From the IMG/VR virus record IMGVR_UViG_3300007986_000012: DNA of 64,000 nucleotides; one strand, written 5' to 3'. The translations under genes were made by a program, and so were the position numbers. Source of the stretch: a virus. The notes under the pieces were generated by a model, which worked only from the letters and a program-made list of their open reading frames with translations, ran no database searches and had not been told where the DNA came from. Positions 2,748 to 33,577 of the stretch are shown piece after piece. Position 1 is the first letter of the stretch. Every line of letters starts with the position of its first letter.

Positions 2748-3295
2748 TATCTAATCACCAGTCTCTCTTTCGAAATTTTTAATGTTCTAACACTTTTTCT
2801 GAGAAAAGAAAGAACATCTTCATTGTTCTTTCTCAGGAATGTGCCGGAATTGACTTGATCAAACACTTCTACCAATCTAGTCTTAGTATTTTCATGTAGG
2901 TCTTTTTTATAGATGCTCAATTCAGATACAAGGTTTCCAATTCCCAAACTTTCCGAAACGAATCTGATCTTATCATCGGTTGTTTTCGCAAAATCCAAAG
3001 CTTTTACGCTAGCATATTGGGGAATTCGATCAAACAACAACACACTATTTAGATTTTTCCCCTTTTTTGATAAAGATACCAATTCTAGGAAGATAAGCCC
3101 CCTAGAGACCCTACCGCCGCCATAGTCTTTCTGCAAATCTGCGTAACTAAGGTCTATTTGTTGTTCAGGCTCGACGACAAAACTAGGACCGAAATCATTC
3201 ACTAAAAAGGTTTGTGATTGTTGACTCAAGACTTCTCTGGCTTCATCGAAGTTACCTTGACGTATAGCGTATTGCACTCTAGCTAGGATTTTCAT
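2747..3295 (-). CDS. Hypothetical protein (start revised to MKILARVQ at 3295)
   Basis: The ORF-track start at 3367 would run through the gp19 terminator and a late promoter, so the internal ATG is more plausible. Confidence 0.6.
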   Translation of the reverse strand: MKILARVQYAIRQGNFDEAREVLSQQSQTFLVNDFGPSFVVEPEQQIDLSYADLQKDYGGGRVSRGLIFLELVSLSKKGKNLNSVLLFDRIPQYASVKALDFAKTTDDKIRFVSESLGIGNLVSELSIYKKDLHENTKTRLVEVFDQVNSGTFLRKNNEDVLSFLRKSVRTLKISKERLVIR

Positions 3296-4959: not shown

Positions 4960-7107
4960 TTACGTGTTAGATGGTGGGTTTGCGATAATGCTACCCGGAT
5001 CACCGATGTCTGCATCTAAAGCAACCACTCTAATAGTAACAGGGATAAATTCTACCGCTGTTACTGGCTTTAAGGCCACATCAATCCAAAGTTCCTTGCG
5101 CTGAACACGATCTGGAGTATTGTTGGAATCGTCACAAATTGTAGCGAAGTCGAACAATGCTCTAGTGTTGATCAATCCGAACAAGAAATTATCCACAGTA
5201 GTTTTCACCTGATCGCGAGTAATCTGATCGTTTGGTTCAAACAGGTAAGGGAACAACCCTCTACGAACTTCTCTTTTGATGTATCTCAACAATCTTTCGA
5301 TGTTTACGGATTCTCTCAAAGATACGGCACCGTACACAGTTTTCTGGCCAAGAACCAAGATTCCTCTTCCGGATATGCGTGTGATCGGATTGATGTTTTT
5401 AGGAAACTCATACAGCGAATCCCTAGCACCAACATTGAGATCTTCCTCTACAAATGTGGTAGGACCCCCCAAGTTCCCAGAAACATAACCAGTTTTTGTT
5501 AGGTGAGGACATGATCCACGTTCGACACCCGCTGGTGCGTACCACAAGGCAGTCTCTCTATCATTGAAAGCATAGACTCTCAAGGCAGTAGAGGCCGAGG
5601 TGGTTAGAATGTTTCTACCGTCGAGATTAGAAGAAATTCCGTGACCATAGTAGTAAGCAGCGCCGGGATATGTGGTTCTTTCTGAAGAAAGAGCCCAAGT
5701 GGTAATACCGTTAAATCCAGTTGGCGGTCTGTCAAACGGGGTTTCACCGATTACAAATACTTCTTCCAACATGTCAACTGCCATCCTATTCAATTCGTCC
5801 GTAAGCTCGTGGTATCCCGGAGCTACTAGTAGGTTATATGAATAAGCGTCAGGGTTTCTCACACCAAGGGTCGGGTCATTGATTGCAGCTTGCATCTGGG
5901 CTACGATTTCTGCTCTTCTTTCAGCATCATTAATACCCAAACTGGTGAAATTCCTGAACTCTCTTGTCAACTCATACTCGTTAGCGGCAGTAGACAACAG
6001 TGCCACAATTTCTGGACAAGTGTACGAAGAACTGTCATCAATTGCATTATACAGACCAAAATAATCCCCAGTGGCAGCATTTTCATAGCCGTCGGCAAAA
6101 ATTAATAGTTGGTCTGTGCCTAGACCCTGTACTGGGTCAGCTAGGAACAAGAATAGATTCAAGGAACTAAATAGTCCCGTCGCACCAGAAACGCCTTCTT
6201 CTATTTCAATACTTGAAGTGGCCCCAGACAAAGCAGAAGTTACTCTTAAACGACCCGCGACAAAATCTATAAAAGCGTCACCACCGAGTTCGGTGTTAAT
6301 TTCGTCTATCAATTCTCCAAAAGTCTGAATAGCCGCACCATCTAGAGAAACCGTTTGCGGCACTGCACCTTCTATGCTAATGGTAAATGCGTAAGTGGTG
6401 GCATCGTTATTCAGTCCAGTAACATCATCGGTGGTTAGGAAGCCCCCGGTTGTATCAAATACTATTTCTTGGTACCCCGACCTAGCAACGTTGTTATCCT
6501 CTAAGAAATTTTGCTTGAAAAGATTGTTGTTTCCTGTTCTGTTCTTGGAAGAGAAAGAATATACGTTGAATAGGTCAGTAAGAGCCTCTTCAATCAAAAG
6601 TTTCGCGTCAGAACCAGCTACTTCTGTAGAGGCTGCTGGGCCATACAATTCGTTTTCTTCGTTGAACTCTGCTAGGTAATCTTCGAAAAGCTCGCAAACG
6701 TAATCAGAAGCTTCTGAAATTTTGCGTCCCCACAATGCACGGATTCCAGTAATAGAATCGTCCAAGTTCACGTTGGCACGGACAACATATGCTCTGTTAC
6801 CAACTTCCAAAAATTTGTTTAACGCATCCAAACCGTATTCGTTTCTGGCGTCGCCGTGGAACGGTTGGCCATCAACACTTTCCAAATATCTAGGAATTCC
6901 GTATAGTTCAACGGCCTGACGGATAGACGTTACTTCTCTAAAAACTCCATACTCATATGTACCAAGTGCTGGAGTCACGCCGTCAGGCTGTGTTTTCTCG
7001 TCAGCAGTCGCAATGAAAATTACCGGAATTGTAGCCGCACGACCCGGAATGAAAAAACTTTGGTCGTCAATGGTTACACTTACACCGGGGCTAATTAAAC
7101 TTGCCAT
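4960..7107 (-). CDS. gp18: Tail sheath protein, T4 gp18-like
   Basis: MASLISPGVSV, LWYAPAGVERG, INPITRISGRGILVLGQKT, INIERLLRYIK, FEPNDQITR, CDDSNNTPD, LKPVTAVEFI. Confidence 0.95.
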   Translation of the reverse strand: MASLISPGVSVTIDDQSFFIPGRAATIPVIFIATADEKTQPDGVTPALGTYEYGVFREVTSIRQAVELYGIPRYLESVDGQPFHGDARNEYGLDALNKFLEVGNRAYVVRANVNLDDSITGIRALWGRKISEASDYVCELFEDYLAEFNEENELYGPAASTEVAGSDAKLLIEEALTDLFNVYSFSSKNRTGNNNLFKQNFLEDNNVARSGYQEIVFDTTGGFLTTDDVTGLNNDATTYAFTISIEGAVPQTVSLDGAAIQTFGELIDEINTELGGDAFIDFVAGRLRVTSALSGATSSIEIEEGVSGATGLFSSLNLFLFLADPVQGLGTDQLLIFADGYENAATGDYFGLYNAIDDSSSYTCPEIVALLSTAANEYELTREFRNFTSLGINDAERRAEIVAQMQAAINDPTLGVRNPDAYSYNLLVAPGYHELTDELNRMAVDMLEEVFVIGETPFDRPPTGFNGITTWALSSERTTYPGAAYYYGHGISSNLDGRNILTTSASTALRVYAFNDRETALWYAPAGVERGSCPHLTKTGYVSGNLGGPTTFVEEDLNVGARDSLYEFPKNINPITRISGRGILVLGQKTVYGAVSLRESVNIERLLRYIKREVRRGLFPYLFEPNDQITRDQVKTTVDNFLFGLINTRALFDFATICDDSNNTPDRVQRKELWIDVALKPVTAVEFIPVTIRVVALDADIGDPGSIIANPPSNT

Positions 7108-26147: not shown

Positions 26148-26718
26148 TTAATGTACCCTCTCTAAACGATTGAATGTTGAAATCTCGTAACTCTTGAATA
26201 GATCTAGCTTCTTTAAGAGTAATTGAAACGTTCCAGACGATAGGAACCGCGCCTTTTGGGGTTATGATATAATCGTTCTCTTCGTTCAAAGTTATGCTCA
26301 AATCGGTCATTCTAACTGCTACCTGTTTAAATTGATTGTTAAGACCATTGAGAAAAAGTCTAGAAGGGGTTTTTGTATTAAACTCACCGTCACCAGTTTT
26401 TTCTGGCATCCTCCAAGATCGAAGGGTATTGACATAGGCTAAGTTGGTTTCTGCTTCTGATACAGTTCTAGAAACAAACGTGGCGTCTATTGAAAAGGTT
26501 CTGCTGGGGCTTCCCGTGTAAATCAATAAACTGGCAGCTTGTCTCATGTCCCCAACTTCAAGGTAGTTTGCTGTACCGGATTCAGACACATTGGGTTGTA
26601 CGAAGAATACAACAACCCCGGTGGGTTGCCCTGTTGCTGCCGGTATCGTTTGTGTTTGTGCGTCGGTACCAATCTCTTCTTGGACCCGGCCAGTCAAAAA
26701 TATAGGTTGTGCTACCAT
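26137..26718 (-). CDS. Tube-initiator-like baseplate protein (contractile-system tube fold)
   Basis: FVQPNVSESGTANY, IYTGSPSRTFSIDATF, VRMTDLSI, VPIVWNVSITLKE; lies upstream of gp53. Confidence 0.65.
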   Translation of the reverse strand: MVAQPIFLTGRVQEEIGTDAQTQTIPAATGQPTGVVVFFVQPNVSESGTANYLEVGDMRQAASLLIYTGSPSRTFSIDATFVSRTVSEAETNLAYVNTLRSWRMPEKTGDGEFNTKTPSRLFLNGLNNQFKQVAVRMTDLSITLNEENDYIITPKGAVPIVWNVSITLKEARSIQELRDFNIQSFREGTLNGW

Positions 26719-26741
26719 GATTACTGTAAATCTGTTCCATC

Positions 26742-26749
26742 TATTTATA
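26742..26749 (-). promoter_or_regulatory. Late promoter TATAAATA, with a divergent CATAAATA at about 26798 on the plus strand
   Basis: Motifs sit in the divergent intergenic gap upstream of each gene. Confidence 0.65.
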
Positions 26750-26823
26750 TCCTATGGAAAGAGTCTATTTGTGGAAAAACAACTTTTTGTGTTGACCATA
26801 AATATCATCATTACAAACACACA

Positions 26824-28843: not shown

Positions 28844-30163
28844 ATGAAAATTTTACAAGTACTTGAGGCCACTACCTACATGACGGATATTTCGTCAAAT
28901 GATTTCGGTCAAATGAGCCAATTTTTCTCTTTTCTTGAAAAAGAAAAAAAGGGGTACAATCTCTCTCTGGATGATGTAATGCGTTTTGTGCTAACAATCA
29001 AAAGCAAAAAGAGCGCTCTGCGAAACGTAGCAGGTTCAGGAGAAGAAATATCAAGGTCCCTTGCTTCGTCAACTGTCGGAAGAGAAGCCAATCTTGCAAG
29101 AGGGTTCAGTGATACCAAAGATGTAAATCTAGGTGAAACCAGTATTGATAATATGCATGCAGTAGGAAAAGCATTAGAGGCCGCAGGATATGCAGAACTA
29201 AACGATGATCCACGCAAATCAACAATAGACCGAGACGCAACCGCGAGATTATTGAAATTCATCAACACTATTAAAGCTAGTGGTTTCAATACACCACGAC
29301 AGGTAGCTCAAAATTTCGAGAAGGCCGTTGGTTCATATCGCCGTGGTGTAGAGGGCTTCAAACAAGATATCGGTAGAGGGAACAGTGATCTTGATATTGC
29401 TAAAGATCGAGTAAGTAATATAACACCAAACATGTTAATGTTTCTGGCCGCAGTAGTAAAGAAAAAAGGTAGAAGTGAAGCGTGGGACAACTACCTAAAC
29501 CCTGATAACTATGATGAACCACCGTTGCCGGGTTATACTCCGGGGTCATACAATCCCCGTGAAGCCGCTAAAGAACTAATAGCTATGGGACTTACAACCA
29601 AAACACCCAAAAAAGGACTGATAACTCTAAACAAGGATGCAATTAAAAAATCGGTTTCAGCCCTCCGCAACGAGTTAGAAGAATTAAAAACAGGTAGCAT
29701 CGAACAACCCGGTAACGTTAACACAAAAAGTCTAAAAGCCGTTGAACAAAATGCTAAAGCGTTAATCGACAAGATTGACTCAATGGTTCCTAATGACATC
29801 AAACGACTGGCAGAAAGTAAACTAGCAGCGGCACTTAGAAAAGCCAGTGAAGATACCGGTGACGATTCTTTTATTCAAGCCTATAACTTGTATACTAACA
29901 AACTAGCCCAATCAAGCGAAAGTGAAGCCGTGGGTGATGCTTCCGAAAGAATCAAAAAAACCCACTTAGGTAGTGTTATCGCTTTCCTGAGAGCCAGAAT
30001 CATCGGTCGCATGCTTTACCATTACGCATCGATGGTAATAGGCGATGGAAAAAAGTGGAAAGCACCAAACAAAGACTATGGATTTACTGGTCCAAAAGAA
30101 CTATCTATGGTAAGAAGCGCGCTCAAAAGTGGCGATGCATTAAAAACGTCACGTCTTTACTGA
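28844..30163 (+). CDS. Hypothetical 439-aa protein, possibly internal virion protein
   Basis: GATAAATA upstream; N-terminus MKILQVLEA resembles that of the ORF at 44955. Confidence 0.75.
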   Translation: MKILQVLEATTYMTDISSNDFGQMSQFFSFLEKEKKGYNLSLDDVMRFVLTIKSKKSALRNVAGSGEEISRSLASSTVGREANLARGFSDTKDVNLGETSIDNMHAVGKALEAAGYAELNDDPRKSTIDRDATARLLKFINTIKASGFNTPRQVAQNFEKAVGSYRRGVEGFKQDIGRGNSDLDIAKDRVSNITPNMLMFLAAVVKKKGRSEAWDNYLNPDNYDEPPLPGYTPGSYNPREAAKELIAMGLTTKTPKKGLITLNKDAIKKSVSALRNELEELKTGSIEQPGNVNTKSLKAVEQNAKALIDKIDSMVPNDIKRLAESKLAAALRKASEDTGDDSFIQAYNLYTNKLAQSSESEAVGDASERIKKTHLGSVIAFLRARIIGRMLYHYASMVIGDGKKWKAPNKDYGFTGPKELSMVRSALKSGDALKTSRLY

Positions 30164-30170
30164 AAAAAGC

Positions 30171-30202
30171 TTGACTTCACCTTCCCCAAGCATATATAAA
30201 TA
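30171..30202 (+). promoter_or_regulatory. Composite promoter: TTGACT-18 nt-TATAAA (sigma70-like) overlapping the late motif TATAAATA
   Basis: TTGACT at 30171-30176 and TATAAATA at 30195-30202; no ORF follows for about 670 nt. Confidence 0.75.
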
Positions 30203-30203
30203 A

Positions 30204-30540
30204 CCCTGTTCCCAACTTTGCAGTAAAGGAACACTTACAATTTGCATATCCCGAACAGGCTGCACAAATGTCGGACAGGGTGGATAGTAGACGATGAGGT
30301 TGCTATCCCATAGAAAAGCCCTAAAGGTCTGAATGAGGGGATTATACGTTGGTAACGCTTTCGGGACAGGCTGGACGTATAAATCCTAGACTCATGAAAA
30401 CAAGTTCATTGTTCATCGCAGTGAAAGGTCTTGGATCAATATTGATCGCGAATGACTGGAGATCGTCTTTGTACTGCAAATACAATGATCTTGTTATGGT
30501 AGTAGCAAGATAGATTCACCTACCTAGGTTGGAACGGGAA
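30204..30540 (+). ncRNA. Candidate ~335-nt structured non-coding RNA
   Basis: Starts right after the promoter; 5' and 3' ends are complementary; at least 7 nested helices, several with G-U pairs, and one possible pseudoknot; no ORF; not tRNA, tmRNA or RNase P by motif. Confidence 0.6.
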
Positions 30541-30546
30541 ATTTCC

Positions 30547-30845
30547 TAAACAAATTTATTATACAATTTTGTTAAAAAATGGGGGAGAGTATTTTAAAAC
30601 CCTTCAAAAAATATTCAAAAACACTGTAACCTACAAAATAGAAATAAAACAGAAACAAAATAAAGAATGTAAATGCGAACGGAGCGAAGCGTAGTGAGTA
30701 TTTACATTCTTGTAAAAAAAAACGAAATAACAAATTAATGGGGACCCCTTCGGGTCCCTCGGAGTCCGCTGTCGCGAACATCCGACTTGCTCTGCGCTCT
30801 TTAATAAGGTACAATATACAGGTACACCCAAATAGGTACAGACAA
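30547..30845. other. Origin-like element cluster
   Basis: A-rich tract 30547-30670; 12-bp inverted repeat 30663-30674/30700-30711 enclosing GCGAAGC; hairpin 30741-30758; three AGGTACA direct repeats (30807, 30820, 30834); directly upstream of a helicase. Confidence 0.45.
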
Positions 30846-30871
30846 ATGAACTACAAACAAATAGGTTGAAT

Positions 30872-33577
30872 ATGAAACACGAAGAGATACTTGAAAATAA
30901 CGAAAAGAAAATTCTAGAGACACTAGGAAACAGAAGTGTGTTCGACGCTTGGAAGAAAGCTCTAAATTACACGCCCAGAGATTCTCAAGAGAAGGTAATG
31001 GAGTGGATTGATACGTTGCCACCTGAAATCAAGTACATTTTAGTAGAAGCCCCCGTAGGCTGTCATGCAATAGATACACCAATAATAGGCTATGACGGAC
31101 ACATCAAACTGGTTCAAGAAATAAAGGTTGGGGATCAACTAATGGGACCTGATGGAAAAAAGCGTACCGTTTTGGAACTGCATCGAGGTACTCAACAGAT
31201 GTATAAGATAACACCGGTAAAAGGTGACCCATTTGTCGTCAACCAAGACCACATACTATCGTTGAAAACCACTCCGCTGGGAGGTAGGTACAATGTGTCA
31301 GGGAGCGAAATAGTAAACATTTCTGTTCGTGATTATCTGAATAAATCGAATCACTTTAAAAGAAATCACAAACTGTATCGACCGGATTTCATTGAATTTA
31401 CGGATTCTCAGTCTTTTCAGTCTTGCAACGAAAAACAGCAAGAGATAAACCCATATTTCATGGGAGTACTGTTGGGGGATGGATGTATGAAAAAATGTGC
31501 TTCAGTTACCACTATCGATTATCAAATTGCACAGACCGTATATGAACAAGCGGAAGTATTTGGACTTGAGGTTAGGGAACAAGTCAAAGAATCTACACAT
31601 GCAATACAGTATTACTTGTCTAGTGGAAGGTCTCAGCTATATGAAGACCGAAACCGCTTGATCGATATTCTGAAGAGAAACGGCTTGTATGGAAAAACTT
31701 CAGGGAATAAGTTTATTCCACACATGTACAAGGTTGGAAATAAGTTAACACGACTCGAAATACTGGCAGGGCTTATAGACACCGATGGAAGTCACAACGG
31801 TAGAGGGGGTTTTGATTATGTAACTAAATCCCCCCAGTTGGCAGAAGACATTAAGTTCATATGCAGAAGTTTGGGACTATCTGTAAATTCCAGTATAAAG
31901 ACGGTAGATGGAAAAAAATATGCAAGAATATGTATTAGTGGTAACACAGATATTATACCTACCCGTTTGGAGAGAAAAAAGGCACCACCTCGAAAACAAA
32001 AAAAGAGACCCACAGTGACCGGGTTTTCGATAGAAAAACTTGATGTAGATGAATATTACGGCTTTTCTCTGGATGAAGACCATCTCTATTTGTTGGGGGA
32101 TTTCATAGTAACACACAATTCAGGAAAATCTAATTTAGCAATGGCATTCAGTTCTTACATTAGTGATAGAATGGGTGATTCGTTCATATTAACTCCACAG
32201 AAAACGCTACAGCGCCAATATGAAGAGTCATTTGAAAAACATCTTCTTTTTTCTGTATACGGAAGAAGTAATTATGAATGCGAACAAAAAAACACGACTT
32301 GTGATGTAGGCGCGGATATTAAACCTGCATGTGATAATTGTCCCGCTAAACTCGCAAGAGATATGTCTATTACATCACCTAATGCCGTAATGAACTATAC
32401 ATTAGCTCTAACTTATTTCAAATACTTGAGAAAAATGATTCCCCCTAGAAATTTAATGGTGTTGGATGAAGCACATACCTTGGAATCCAACCTTGTCGAA
32501 TTCAGTTCGATTTCTGTAACGGACAAGAAATGTAAGAAATACAACGTCAAGTTCCAGTTCGCTCGTAGCGCCGCTGAGGCCATAAATTGGATAAGTCGTA
32601 CCTATCTACCTGCCGTCGAAGCAAAATCGATAGAGCTACGTAAGAAGGTGACTGAGATCGAAACTAGAGGTGGGGCACTGAGTAAATCTGACATACAGAC
32701 TGTTCGTGCTGCCATAACAGCCACGGAACATCGTAACCAATTAGTAGATCTAGTAGAAATGGACATGTCTCTAATAGACAAGAAATACGTCCTTGTGTCT
32801 GAAAAAGTTGGATTCAAATTCAAGGAACTCTACGCCAAGAATAATTTTAAAAACATTTGTTTACCAATGGCAAATCGTTTTCTCTTTATGTCATCTACTA
32901 TTCTGGATAAAGACGAATTCTGTCGAGACTTGGGGATCGACCCAGATGAGTCTGCTATGATTTCTCTTGATTCCGAATTTCCAGAAGAAAACAGGGAAGT
33001 AATATTTTCTCCCGTTACCAAAATGAATTATGGGTGGAACTCTGAAGAAAGAACACAAGATCGTAAGAAGATGATGACCCACATCAATCATGTATGTAGC
33101 TATCATGCGGACGAGTCGGGTGTGATACACACGGGTTCTTTCCAAGTTTCCCAGTGGATTCTTGAAAACATAAAGACAAATCATAGAATCATTCATCATA
33201 ATCCCGGTTTCAATCTTAGTAGAGATGAAGCTATTGACACCTTTTTGGAGTGTTCTGAAAAAGAACCAACTTTGCTGATATCTCCTTCTGTGACTGAAGG
33301 CATGGACTTGAAGGATAATCGCGGAAGATTTGCACTTATAGTCAAAGTTCCGTATCCGTATTTAGGAGATGCGTGGACAAAACGACGTATGCAGATTTCC
33401 AAGGACTGGTACAACCGACAGGCTATTACAGGAATAATTCAGGGTTGTGGTAGAGTTGTACGTTCCAAGGATGACTGGGGTACGGTATACATTCTCGACG
33501 AGTCCTTCGAATATTTGTATAATCAGACTAGAAAAATGATTCCATCATGGTGGAAGAGAGGATTGACAGTAGTATGA
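30872..33577 (+). CDS. DinG/XPD-like SF2 DNA helicase with intein
   Basis: Walker A EAPVG|SGKS split by the intein, four-Cys cluster (YEC..C..C..CP), VLDEAH, EGMDL, KVPYPYLGD, QGCGRVVRSKDDWG. Confidence 0.9.
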   Translation: MKHEEILENNEKKILETLGNRSVFDAWKKALNYTPRDSQEKVMEWIDTLPPEIKYILVEAPVGCHAIDTPIIGYDGHIKLVQEIKVGDQLMGPDGKKRTVLELHRGTQQMYKITPVKGDPFVVNQDHILSLKTTPLGGRYNVSGSEIVNISVRDYLNKSNHFKRNHKLYRPDFIEFTDSQSFQSCNEKQQEINPYFMGVLLGDGCMKKCASVTTIDYQIAQTVYEQAEVFGLEVREQVKESTHAIQYYLSSGRSQLYEDRNRLIDILKRNGLYGKTSGNKFIPHMYKVGNKLTRLEILAGLIDTDGSHNGRGGFDYVTKSPQLAEDIKFICRSLGLSVNSSIKTVDGKKYARICISGNTDIIPTRLERKKAPPRKQKKRPTVTGFSIEKLDVDEYYGFSLDEDHLYLLGDFIVTHNSGKSNLAMAFSSYISDRMGDSFILTPQKTLQRQYEESFEKHLLFSVYGRSNYECEQKNTTCDVGADIKPACDNCPAKLARDMSITSPNAVMNYTLALTYFKYLRKMIPPRNLMVLDEAHTLESNLVEFSSISVTDKKCKKYNVKFQFARSAAEAINWISRTYLPAVEAKSIELRKKVTEIETRGGALSKSDIQTVRAAITATEHRNQLVDLVEMDMSLIDKKYVLVSEKVGFKFKELYAKNNFKNICLPMANRFLFMSSTILDKDEFCRDLGIDPDESAMISLDSEFPEENREVIFSPVTKMNYGWNSEERTQDRKKMMTHINHVCSYHADESGVIHTGSFQVSQWILENIKTNHRIIHHNPGFNLSRDEAIDTFLECSEKEPTLLISPSVTEGMDLKDNRGRFALIVKVPYPYLGDAWTKRRMQISKDWYNRQAITGIIQGCGRVVRSKDDWGTVYILDESFEYLYNQTRKMIPSWWKRGLTVV
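31061..32119 (+). mobile_element. Intein (353 aa) with LAGLIDADG homing endonuclease
   Basis: N-terminal CHAIDT, DHILSL block B, YFMGVLLGDG and ILAGLIDTDG motifs, C-terminal VTHN followed by Ser. Confidence 0.95.

What the first reader, a model, noticed from the sequence alone, without database searches (positions are those of the whole stretch)
30171..30540. Candidate novel ~335-nt structured RNA with its own dual promoter
Transcription should start near 30204-30208, after TTGACT/TATAAATA, and no ORF follows. Helices seen: 30204-30216 with 30528-30538 (closes the molecule); TTTGCAGTAAAG 30217-30228 with 30467-30480; AGGGT 30277 with GCCCT 30318, enclosing GGATAGTA 30282 with TGCTATCC 30301; ATGAG..GGATTATACGTT 30333-30350 with 30374-30395; TTCATTG 30405 with CAGTGAA 30419; ATCTTGTTA 30488 with TAGCAAGAT 30503; and the palindrome GATCAATATTGATC 30434-30447. 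TCCCGAA 30249 complements TTCGGGA 30360 in a hairpin loop, a possible pseudoknot. Frequent G-U pairs suggest selection on RNA rather than DNA. It lacks tRNA, tmRNA, RNase P and group I/II hallmarks. Hypotheses: a replication primer RNA (ColE1 RNA II-like), a late structural or packaging RNA, or a protein sponge. The palindromic loop could mediate dimerisation.
Basis: partly seen in the sequence, partly recalled or inferred. Interest (0 to 1): 0.85.

Follow-up and report, generated by a model that had tools for sequence, protein, structure and literature searches.

The report
New pseudoknotted RNA gene of jumbo phages
The gap in front of the helicase gene holds a real, previously uncatalogued gene for a folded non-coding RNA of about 350-380 bases, kept once per genome in a small clade of uncultured giant phages; its job is unknown, and priming DNA replication is my leading guess.

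Summary
The observation largely holds. Window 30171-30590 is a non-coding transcription unit. It has a sigma70-like promoter fused to a T4-type late TATAAATA box, then a highly structured RNA, then a conserved A-run/G-run.

Nine relatives carry the same element. All are uncultured jumbo-phage contigs, two of them complete at about 315 kb. The element is single-copy and always lies upstream of, and co-oriented with, the DinG-like helicase gene.

A covariance model built without the window finds it at E 5e-15. On the ten-member alignment 89.5% of pair cells are standard pairs, 27 of 32 pairs change on both sides, and 0 of 500 shuffles reach this.

Its closing helix and its "dimerising palindrome" are not conserved. 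It missed the best-supported helix (30256-61 with 30326-31) and a second pseudoknot.

No Rfam family matches three divergent members, even at E<=10. No cultured phage carries the element.

Function is inferred only. I favour an origin-associated R-loop/primer RNA (about 0.35) over an unrelated trans-acting "ornate" RNA (about 0.35). The tie is broken by the conserved polypurine tail, the iteron-like repeats and the helicase neighbour.

The scan has noted other orphan RNAs before helicase genes in other jumbo phages. I did not test whether they are related.

The parts
30171..30202 (+). Promoter: -35 TTGACT (30171-76), 18-nt spacer, -10 TATAAA, overlapping the T4-type late box TATAAATA (30195-30202)
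   Evidence: Eight of ten family members have a sigma70 match of at least 10/12 at the same place.
30204..30235 (+). 5' extension found only in the window and L004.
   Evidence: In L011 and L013 the promoter ends 4 nt before the conserved core, so this extension is not part of the family core.
30236..30406 (+). Conserved core of the RNA family, from the 5' motif UACAAUUUG to AAAACA
   Evidence: Model R2 scores 141.6 bits. Model R3, built without the window, scores 74.7 bits at E 5e-15.
30249..30255 (+). Pseudoknot 1, 5' strand (UCCCGAA); pairs with 30360-30366
   Evidence: C-G becomes U-A in L004. The pairs vary as C-G, U-A and A-U across members.
30256..30261 (+). Helix H1, 5' strand (CAGGCU); pairs with 30326-30331 (GGUCUG)
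   Evidence: It is 100% paired in 10 sequences, three pairs change on both sides, and two G-U pairs are invariant.
30277..30322 (+). Hairpin domain inside H1: AGGGU/GCCCU enclosing GGAUAGUA/UGCUAUCC
   Evidence: two double changes in L004. Equivalent helices in other members (AAGU/ACUU, AACC/GGUU, GAG/CUC, AAG/CUU) were read.
30326..30331 (+). Helix H1, 3' strand, preceded by the conserved UAAA
30333..30395 (+). Long hairpin. P4 30333-37 with 30391-95; P4a 30338-40 with 30385-87; P4b 30342-49 with 30375-82; P4c 30357-58 with 30370-71. The apical loop carries the pseudoknot 3' strand, 30360-66.
   Evidence: P4 and P4a 100%, P4b 83%, P4c 90% of cells paired, and every pair changes on both sides.
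30405..30425 (+). Hairpin TTCATTG/CAGTGAA. A hairpin stands here in every member, with unrelated sequences.
30427..30480 (+). Segment specific to the window and L004: the hairpin holding the palindrome 30434-47, and the 3' strand (30467-80) of the clade-specific helix
   Evidence: Absent in the L089, L030 and L165 group.
30488..30524 (+). Pseudoknot 2. Helix a: 30488-93 with 30506-11. Helix b: the loop GGUAG 30498-502 with CUACC 30520-24.
   Evidence: Sequences printed. Helix a varies as AUCUUG/CAAGAU, GUUC/GAAC, AUGC/GCAU, AUCC/GGAU. Helix b varies as GUAG/CUAC, GUGG/CCAC, GUGC/GCAC, GCAC/GUGU. It is clear in 8 of 10 members and was read by eye, not by a column test.
30525..30548 (+). Conserved motif YUGGGUUUGG (here CUAGGUUGG) and terminal hairpin UAGG/CCUA
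   Evidence: The closing pairs vary as GGG/CCC, AAG/CUU, GAG/CUC, GGCG/CGCC, AGG/CCU.
30551..30589 (+). AU hairpin (30551-56 with 30565-71), then the A-run and G-run AAAAAAUGGGGGAGAG (30574-89)
   Evidence: It is present in all ten members, 137-207 nt after the core. It occurs only once in the 64-kb window. The XacN1 group also has a G-run at this place.
30590..30865 (+). Spacer before the helicase gene: an A-rich stretch, hairpins 30667-30710 (with a GCGAAGC loop) and 30741-58, and three AGGTACA repeats at 30807, 30820 and 30834
   Evidence: In relatives this spacer holds intrinsic terminators, iteron-like repeats and a separate sigma70 promoter for the helicase.
30866..33577 (+). DinG-like helicase gene (here with an intein), the constant downstream neighbour

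Best explanation
SHOWN. Window ~30205-30590 is a gene for a member of an undescribed family of pseudoknotted non-coding RNAs. From start to G-run it is about 335-490 nt, and about 385 nt here. It occurs once per genome in a clade of uncultured T4-like jumbo phages. It has its own strong host-type promoter, and in this phage also a late promoter.

The conserved core has these parts:
- A 5' single strand that pairs into the apical loop of a long hairpin (pseudoknot 1).
- Helix H1, which abuts that strand directly and has two invariant G-U pairs.
- A second H-type pseudoknot.
- A terminal hairpin.

An AU hairpin and a polypurine tail (A5-6 N G5 A G...) then follow at a fixed distance.

INFERRED MECHANISM. 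The RNA is made early by host RNA polymerase and reads towards an origin-like spacer with hairpins, direct repeats and A/T-rich DNA. The purine-rich tail forms an unusually stable RNA-DNA hybrid (R-loop) with the pyrimidine-rich template. The folded 5' domain governs whether, or where, that hybrid forms, or recruits a replication protein. The hybrid's RNA end primes leading-strand synthesis. The DinG-like helicase encoded next door belongs to a family that unwinds R-loops, so it loads at or resolves the hybrid.

Confidence is about 0.9 that this is a real structured RNA family new to the catalogues, and about 0.35 for the primer/R-loop mechanism. The number in the confidence field is for the mechanism.
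For: REAL AND CONSERVED
- L004 is about 85% identical. None of 101 predicted pairs is broken and six change on both sides.
- Nine relatives were found by covariance models in the syntenic gap.
- Model R3, built from five members without the window, finds the window at E 5e-15. It finds L004, L008, L089 and L165 at 2.5e-11 to 3e-25.
- On the ten-member alignment 89.5% of cells pair, against 66.6% when shuffled. 27 of 32 pairs change on both sides, 0 of 500 shuffles reach this, and slid controls give 28-48%.
- Pseudoknot 1 is supported.
- The invariant G-U pairs make the fold strand-specific.
- Helicase identity among the carriers is only 43-49%.
- The element is single-copy in two complete genomes.

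OWN TRANSCRIPTION UNIT
- Promoters match sigma70 at 10-11 of 12 positions in eight of ten members.
- L011 has a terminator after the tail, and the helicase has a separate promoter.

NEW
- No Rfam match at gathering threshold, or at E<=10, for the window, CM1 and L011.
- No match in 50,697 phage records.

PRIMER/R-LOOP READING
- The A-run/G-run is in all ten members at 137-207 nt from the core and is unique in the window.
- A G-run stands at the same place in the XacN1 group although its RNA is different.
- Direct repeats and stable hairpins lie in the same gap.
- The constant neighbour is a DinG-like helicase.
- The locus lies 2.5-3.6 kb from a divergent strand switch and a cumulative GC-skew minimum. 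That minimum is global in G001.
- G-runs downstream of a promoter are what nucleate primer R-loops at mitochondrial CSB II (PMC3488243). By my own recollection the same holds for ColE1 RNA II, and the tail resembles retroviral polypurine tracts.
Against: - There is no expression, end-mapping or hybrid data.
- As I recall, known T4 R-loop origins need only a promoter and an unwinding element, not a 200-nt pseudoknotted domain. The conserved unpaired nucleotides (GCA, GUCGRA, UAAA, AAAACA, UGAUGG) look more like a ligand-binding, protein-binding or catalytic core.
- A terminator after the tail (L011) suggests a released RNA.
- In the window, L004 and L010 a late promoter is also present. That fits an origin poorly if origins are used early.
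- GC skew is confounded with transcription direction.
- Synteny with the helicase may be mere clade-wide gene order.
- The family has only ten members, so the peripheral helices remain uncertain.
Confidence: 0.35

Rival explanations
1. A free, trans-acting structured RNA whose job has nothing to do with replication initiation. It could be a ribozyme, a scaffold for a phage or host protein, or a self-assembling 'ornate' RNA like GOLLD, ROOL, OLE or raiA. On this reading the polypurine tail is a processing, stability or protein-binding signal.
For: - Two pseudoknots and several invariant unpaired stretches.
- Its own promoter and, in L011, its own terminator.
- Late promoter boxes in three members.
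- Other large phage RNAs of unknown function exist and turned out to be RNA-only assemblies (PMC12286853).
- The carriers have 34-43 tRNA genes, so RNA-processing functions are conceivable.
Against: - No similarity to any catalogued ribozyme or large RNA.
- It is not next to the tRNA arrays.
- This reading gives no explanation for the conserved distance to the G-run, or for the G-run persisting in the XacN1 group with a different RNA.
- The palindrome proposed for dimerisation is not conserved.
Confidence: 0.35
2. A long cis-acting leader (attenuator or riboswitch-like sensor) that controls read-through into the helicase gene.
For: It always lies upstream of, and co-oriented with, the helicase. 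Hairpins or terminators lie between the RNA and the gene.
Against: The helicase has its own consensus sigma70 promoter after the terminator in L008, L011 and L013. The structured core ends 340-680 nt before the start codon. No alternative terminator/antiterminator pairing was seen.
Confidence: 0.08
3. The conserved fold acts in single-stranded DNA rather than RNA, for example as a priming or helicase-loading signal on the displaced + strand.
For: The region looks origin-like. G-T wobbles are tolerated in DNA hairpins. The GCGAAGC mini-hairpin motif lies downstream.
Against: A strong promoter is placed exactly at the 5' edge of the conserved core in L011 and L013. Two pseudoknots and 170-190 nt of conserved core are unusual for DNA signals.
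Confidence: 0.06
4. A very divergent or rearranged member of a known RNA class: RNase P RNA, tmRNA, group I intron, or a twister-type ribozyme at the tail.
For: - By my recollection, the H1 strands (YGAA-YR-GGCU and UAAAGGUCYR) resemble the RNase P CR-V and CR-I motifs that form P4.
- The carriers have many tRNAs.
- L011 gives a sub-threshold twister-P1 hit of 16.5 bits over its tail.
Against: - No RNase P, tmRNA or intron model scores even at E<=10 in three divergent members, and ARAGORN finds nothing.
- The motif order is reversed, and covariation fixes a register without the bulged U.
- No gene is interrupted.
- The twister hit is far below its threshold (67 bits) and is absent in the window.
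Confidence: 0.04

Closest known systems
RNA-primed (R-loop) origins: ColE1 RNA II, mitochondrial LSP/CSB II primer, phage T4 oriF/oriG
   Same: A promoter reads into an origin-like region. A purine/G-rich run in the transcript lies downstream of the promoter, as in CSB II (PMC3488243). In ColE1 a folded upstream RNA domain decides hybrid formation (my recollection). A helicase that acts on R-loops is nearby.
   Different: There is no sequence or Rfam similarity. The folded domain here is far more conserved and is pseudoknotted. No antisense regulator was found. No hybrid, RNase H processing or DNA start has been shown. T4 origins have no such RNA domain.
Large orphan structured RNAs of phages and bacteria (GOLLD, ROOL, OLE, raiA)
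   Same: Hundreds of nucleotides long, intricate conserved folds with pseudoknots, phage-borne, function unknown when discovered.
   Different: The Rfam models do not match. The element is not beside tRNA clusters. It is smaller, and no conserved self-complementary loop suggests multimers.
Retroviral polypurine tract
   Same: An A-run followed by a G-run inside an RNA that could lie in an RNA-DNA hybrid. In retroviruses such tracts resist RNase H and prime DNA synthesis (my recollection).
   Different: Different biology, with no reverse transcriptase here. The resemblance covers about 16 nt only and is untested.
Phage T4 stable RNAs C and D and other phage-encoded small RNAs
   Same: Non-coding RNAs of T4-like phages made from their own promoters, with unknown function.
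   Different: Those are 120-140 nt, lie in the tRNA cluster and are tRNA-processing products. This RNA is 2-3 times larger and sits elsewhere.

Membership tests
Any Rfam 15 family | Covariance-model score at or above the gathering threshold | tested here: not met
   No hit in the 64-kb window. Nothing relevant at E<=10 in window 30100-30900, CM1 (L005) or L011 5960-6480.
RNase P RNA | Match to the bacterial or archaeal RNase P models | tested here: not met
   no RNase P family even at E<=10.
RNase P RNA | CR-I (5') and CR-V (3') pair to form P4, with a bulged U | tested here: not met
   Similar-looking motifs pair as H1, but in reversed order along the RNA. The register fixed by covariation has a G-U pair, not a bulged U.
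RNase P RNA | Cleaves pre-tRNA 5' leaders | not testable with these tools
   Needs an in-vitro assay.
tmRNA | tRNA-like ends with a T-arm and CCA, plus a tag reading frame | tested here: not met
   ARAGORN finds none in the window. In relative G001 a tmRNA lies elsewhere, at 164 kb.
Group I / II intron | Interrupts a gene; matches the intron models | tested here: not met
   The flanking ORFs are complete: 28844-30163 ends with a stop and 30866 starts the helicase. No Rfam intron hit.
ColE1 RNA II-type / R-loop primer RNA | Promoter upstream, transcription directed into an origin region | tested here: inconclusive
   The promoter is present and conserved. The downstream spacer has repeats, hairpins and A/T-rich DNA, but no origin has been mapped.
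ColE1 RNA II-type / R-loop primer RNA | G-rich RNA segment able to form a persistent hybrid | tested here: met
   The A-run/G-run is in all ten members at a fixed distance. Only the sequence feature is shown, not the hybrid.
ColE1 RNA II-type / R-loop primer RNA | RNase H processing and a DNA synthesis start at the hybrid | not testable with these tools
   Needs biochemistry or 5'-end mapping of nascent DNA.
ColE1 RNA II-type / R-loop primer RNA | Antisense regulator RNA | tested here: inconclusive
   One weak - strand promoter-like site lies at 30618-30591 (9/12). The number of such sites equals chance expectation.
GOLLD / ROOL | Model match and association with tRNA arrays | tested here: not met
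   No Rfam hit. No tRNA in the window. In G001 the RNA lies about 18 kb from the tRNA array.
phi29 pRNA (packaging RNA) | Model match; conserved intermolecular loop-loop complementarity | tested here: not met
   No Rfam hit. The only palindrome (30434-47) is a stem confined to the window and L004.

The most novel reading that the evidence does not exclude
T4-like jumbo phages of this clade start replication from an RNA-primed origin. A dedicated pseudoknotted RNA domain of about 200 nt, followed by a polypurine tract, controls formation of the primer R-loop, and the adjacent DinG-like helicase acts on that R-loop. This would be a phage counterpart of ColE1 RNA II and mitochondrial CSB II, with a far more elaborate RNA.
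Probability: 0.3. Interest if true: 0.85.

Novelty: categorically new. Interest (0 to 1): 0.72.

Why it matters
Large RNAs with conserved tertiary-type architecture are rare, and each class found so far has opened new biology.

This one is single-copy and strongly conserved across phages whose proteins have diverged to 43-49% identity. It also sits in a fixed relation to a polypurine tract and a DinG-like helicase.

If it is an origin RNA, it would give the first structured primer RNA in a tailed-phage replication origin, and a handle on how giant phages begin replication. If it is not, it is a new ornate RNA or ribozyme candidate for structural study.

It also shows that the "empty" gap before the helicase gene in this whole group of jumbo phages holds RNA elements, and that different clades carry different ones.

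Tried and rejected
- SEQUENCE SEARCHES: blastn of the window, L030 and L011 RNA regions against 50,697 phage records gave no match. The upstream 439-aa ORF has no relatives in the phage or viral collections.
- XACN1 GROUP: I first took the XacN1-group element (L001-L003, L005) for a homologue because an nhmmer profile linked them. That profile contained the window, so the result was circular. An XacN1-only profile, a window-group profile, and models R1 and R2 (R2 with filters off) find no relation. I treat it as a different RNA in the same gap.
- PATTERN SCANS: two scans of viral contigs for the conserved motifs gave 80 loci, of which only one (L165) was a new true member.
- MINIMUM-ENERGY FOLDS: they pair TCGGAC with GTCTGA. 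Covariation shows GGTCTG pairs with CAGGCT instead.
- 5' MOTIF PARTNER: the search for a partner of UACAAUUUG was no better than shuffled sequence. A G-U-rich pairing with the conserved UGGGUUUGG motif is possible but unproven.
- 3' DOMAIN: column-based counts failed because MAFFT did not keep the helices in register. Those helices are therefore reported from inspection only.
- TWISTER: a 16.5-bit twister-P1 hit over the L011 tail was rejected as composition-driven.
- TOOL FAILURE: one cmsearch with filters off over nine loci failed internally.
- CODING READING: rejected, because stops occur in all frames on the RNA strand in all members and the indels are not multiples of three.

Full report
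WHAT IS THERE

The 702-nt gap between an ORF of unknown function (28844-30163) and a DinG-like helicase gene (30866-33577; Helicase_C_2 plus a Hint/LAGLIDADG intein) has no conserved reading frame.

The + strand of 30204-30540 folds to -102.9 kcal/mol, z -3.3 against dinucleotide shuffles. The - strand gives z -1.7.

ARAGORN finds no tRNA or tmRNA in the window. Rfam 15 gives nothing at gathering thresholds for the whole window, and nothing relevant at E<=10 for 30100-30900.

WHERE THE WINDOW COMES FROM

The helicase's closest cultured relatives are Xanthomonas phages XacN1 and Xoo-sp13 and Stenotrophomonas phages RAS14 and CM1, at about 50% identity. All are 309-385-kb myoviruses. They share the gene order baseplate hub - small ORF - RuvC-like - ORF - 650-820-nt gap - helicase.

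TATAAATA, the T4 late-promoter box, occurs 11 times in the window against 4.2 expected, almost always just upstream of structural ORFs. One copy is at 30195-30202, overlapping a TTGACT-18-TATAAA host-type promoter.

RELATIVES OF THE RNA

A close relative, L004 (IMG/VR contig; helicase 83% identical), has the RNA at about 85% identity. Of 101 pairs in the joint fold, none is broken and six change on both sides.

I anchored on the RuvC-like protein and fetched about 140 loci from viral and metagenome contigs. Covariance models found the element in the syntenic gap of L086, L089, L030, L008, L011, L013 and L010. A motif scan added L165.

In all ten members the RNA lies upstream of, and co-oriented with, the helicase gene. 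The helicase proteins are only 43-49% identical to the window's. The element is single-copy in two complete genomes of 315 and 317 kb with terminal repeats. No cultured phage has it.

As a non-circular test, model R3 was built from five members without the window. It finds window 30236-30406 at 74.7 bits, E 5e-15. It also finds the other four left-out members at E 2.5e-11 to 3e-25.

STRUCTURE

All 60 cells pair in ten sequences. Three pairs show C-G/U-A/A-U exchanges and two G-U pairs are invariant.

Its inner extensions P4a, P4b and P4c hold at 100%, 83% and 90%.

Over the 32 pairs of the core model:
- 89.5% of cells are standard pairs, against 66.6% when partners are shuffled.
- 27 pairs change on both sides.
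- 0 of 500 shuffles reach the observed values.
- Sliding the partners by 1-3 columns drops pairing to 28-48%.

Of the 134 cells that differ from the commonest pair, 101 still pair (75%). In H1, P4 and P4a all of them do. These figures are my arithmetic.

One caveat applies. For the window and L004 the model forces a spurious 4-bp "Pa" hairpin. These two lack that hairpin, which the other eight have.

Each member's 5' strand finds a contiguous 6-8-bp complement in its own apical loop in nine of ten cases, against a mean of 4.9 bp for mismatched partners. The three variable positions switch among C-G, U-A and A-U.

In the 3' domain a second H-type pseudoknot is visible in eight of ten members. 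Helix a is 30488-93 with 30506-11, and its loop 30498-502 pairs with 30520-24. Both stems covary. A conserved YUGGGUUUGG motif follows and opens a terminal hairpin whose closing pairs also covary. These were read from the sequences printed. Column counts failed there because the alignment is out of register.

It is weakened by two uncompensated changes in L004. It uses the conserved 3' motif that forms another hairpin elsewhere, and it starts before the likely transcription start.

In L011 and L013 the promoter's -10 box ends 4 nt before the conserved core. The family core therefore begins at UACAAUUUG (30236), and 30204-35 is a clade-specific extension. The palindrome 30434-47 is a stem found only in the window and L004.

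WHAT FOLLOWS THE RNA

All ten members have an AU-rich hairpin and then an A-run plus G-run, 137-207 nt after the core. In the window this is AAAAAAUGGGGGAGAG, 30574-89; elsewhere it reads for example AAAAAUGGGGGAGGGAGGG. The motif occurs once in the 64-kb window.

After it come stable hairpins, several with GCGAAGC/GCUUCGC loops. Intrinsic terminators follow in some members, for example L011 6426-48 plus a T-run. Direct repeats differ from phage to phage. Finally comes a separate consensus promoter for the helicase. The RNA is therefore its own transcription unit, not simply the helicase leader.

THE XACN1 GROUP

Its gap also holds a conserved, probably structured element, but I could not show homology. 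An XacN1-only nhmmer profile, a window-group profile, and models R1 and R2 (R2 with filters off) all fail. My first positive result was circular.

It nevertheless has a G-run at the corresponding place. That G-run is exactly complementary to an internal AAACCCCCC tract over 9-11 nt in XacN1 and Xoo-sp13. The G-run thus seems to be the constant feature of this gap across clades.

FUNCTION

Nothing here is shown directly.

I favour an origin-associated primer/R-loop RNA for these reasons:
- A strong early promoter reads towards a spacer with repeats, hairpins and A/T-rich DNA.
- The transcript carries a polypurine tract at a fixed distance. This is the kind of sequence that gives the most stable RNA-DNA hybrids and nucleates primer R-loops at mitochondrial CSB II (PMC3488243). 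From my own knowledge the same holds for ColE1 RNA II, and the tract resembles retroviral polypurine tracts.
- The invariant neighbour is a DinG-like helicase, a family known to unwind R-loops (my knowledge).
- The locus lies 2.5-3.6 kb from a divergent strand switch and a cumulative GC-skew minimum in the window and in both complete relatives. That minimum is global in G001. Skew is confounded with transcription direction.

Against this reading:
- Such an elaborate, pseudoknotted, sequence-conserved core is not needed by known R-loop origins and looks like a binding or catalytic core.
- Some members have a terminator after the tail.
- Three members also have a late promoter.

The main rival, a free trans-acting RNA (ribozyme, scaffold or ornate self-assembling RNA), is about as likely. 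A cis-leader, a DNA-level signal, or a rearranged known RNA are minor.

The H1 strands resemble RNase P CR-V and CR-I, and the carriers have 34-43 tRNAs. However, the motif order is reversed, the register differs, and no RNase P model scores.

COMPARISON AND NOVELTY

No catalogued family matches three divergent members, so I file it under none. It works most like the RNA-primed origins if my inference is right, and it looks most like the orphan large RNAs (GOLLD, ROOL, OLE, raiA; PMC12286853) if not.

Earlier notes of this scan describe other orphan RNAs before helicase or polymerase genes in other jumbo phages. I did not test any relation to them.

VERDICT

This is a real, new, well-supported structured RNA family with a plausible but unproven role at a replication origin.

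Noticed in passing
window 30866-33577: The helicase carries a Hint + LAGLIDADG intein (about aa 66-419). L004 (83% identical) and the eight other relatives have the helicase without it, so the intein is a recent insertion in this phage.
   Followed up: partly
L001 4338-4346 and 4713-4721; L002 4337-4345 and 4703-4711; L003 4276-4284 and 4721-4727: The XacN1-group phages have a different conserved non-coding element in the same gap. Its internal AAACCCCCC is the exact complement of a downstream GGGGGGTTT about 370 nt away. This could be a long-range helix or a switch.
   Followed up: partly
L007 4790-5290; L009 4880-5300: Two further relatives have neither RNA type in this gap, but share another motif (CAAAACTG-TTCAGTG) and G-rich runs. 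This may be a third RNA at the same locus.
   Followed up: no
L086 3678-3721; L009 5401-5490; L165 (reverse strand) about 1320-1425 after the RNA; window 30807-30840: Phage-specific direct repeats (4x11 nt, at least 6x13-16 nt, 4x about 17 nt, 3x AGGTACA) lie in the same intergenic region. They look like iterons.
   Followed up: partly
window, 11 sites (e.g. 4047, 17783, 26742, 34053, 39286, 52322): TATAAATA is enriched (11 against 4.2 expected) and sits just upstream of structural ORFs. These are T4-type late promoters, consistent with a gp55-like late sigma factor in this phage group.
   Followed up: partly
G001 (contig of L030) and G002 (contig of L013), whole genomes: The complete relatives of 317 and 315 kb carry 43 and 34 tRNA genes. 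G001 also has a permuted tmRNA at 164 kb.
   Followed up: no
window 26500-26750: Divergent strand switch and cumulative GC-skew minimum 3.6 kb upstream of the RNA. The same arrangement is seen in G001 (a global minimum at about 260 kb, with the RNA at 258.4 kb) and G002.
   Followed up: partly
L089 about 3100-3140, L030 about 5230-5260, L165 (reverse strand) about 1237-1270: After the G-run, three members share a hairpin with the conserved loop CGAGGNACGAG.
   Followed up: no
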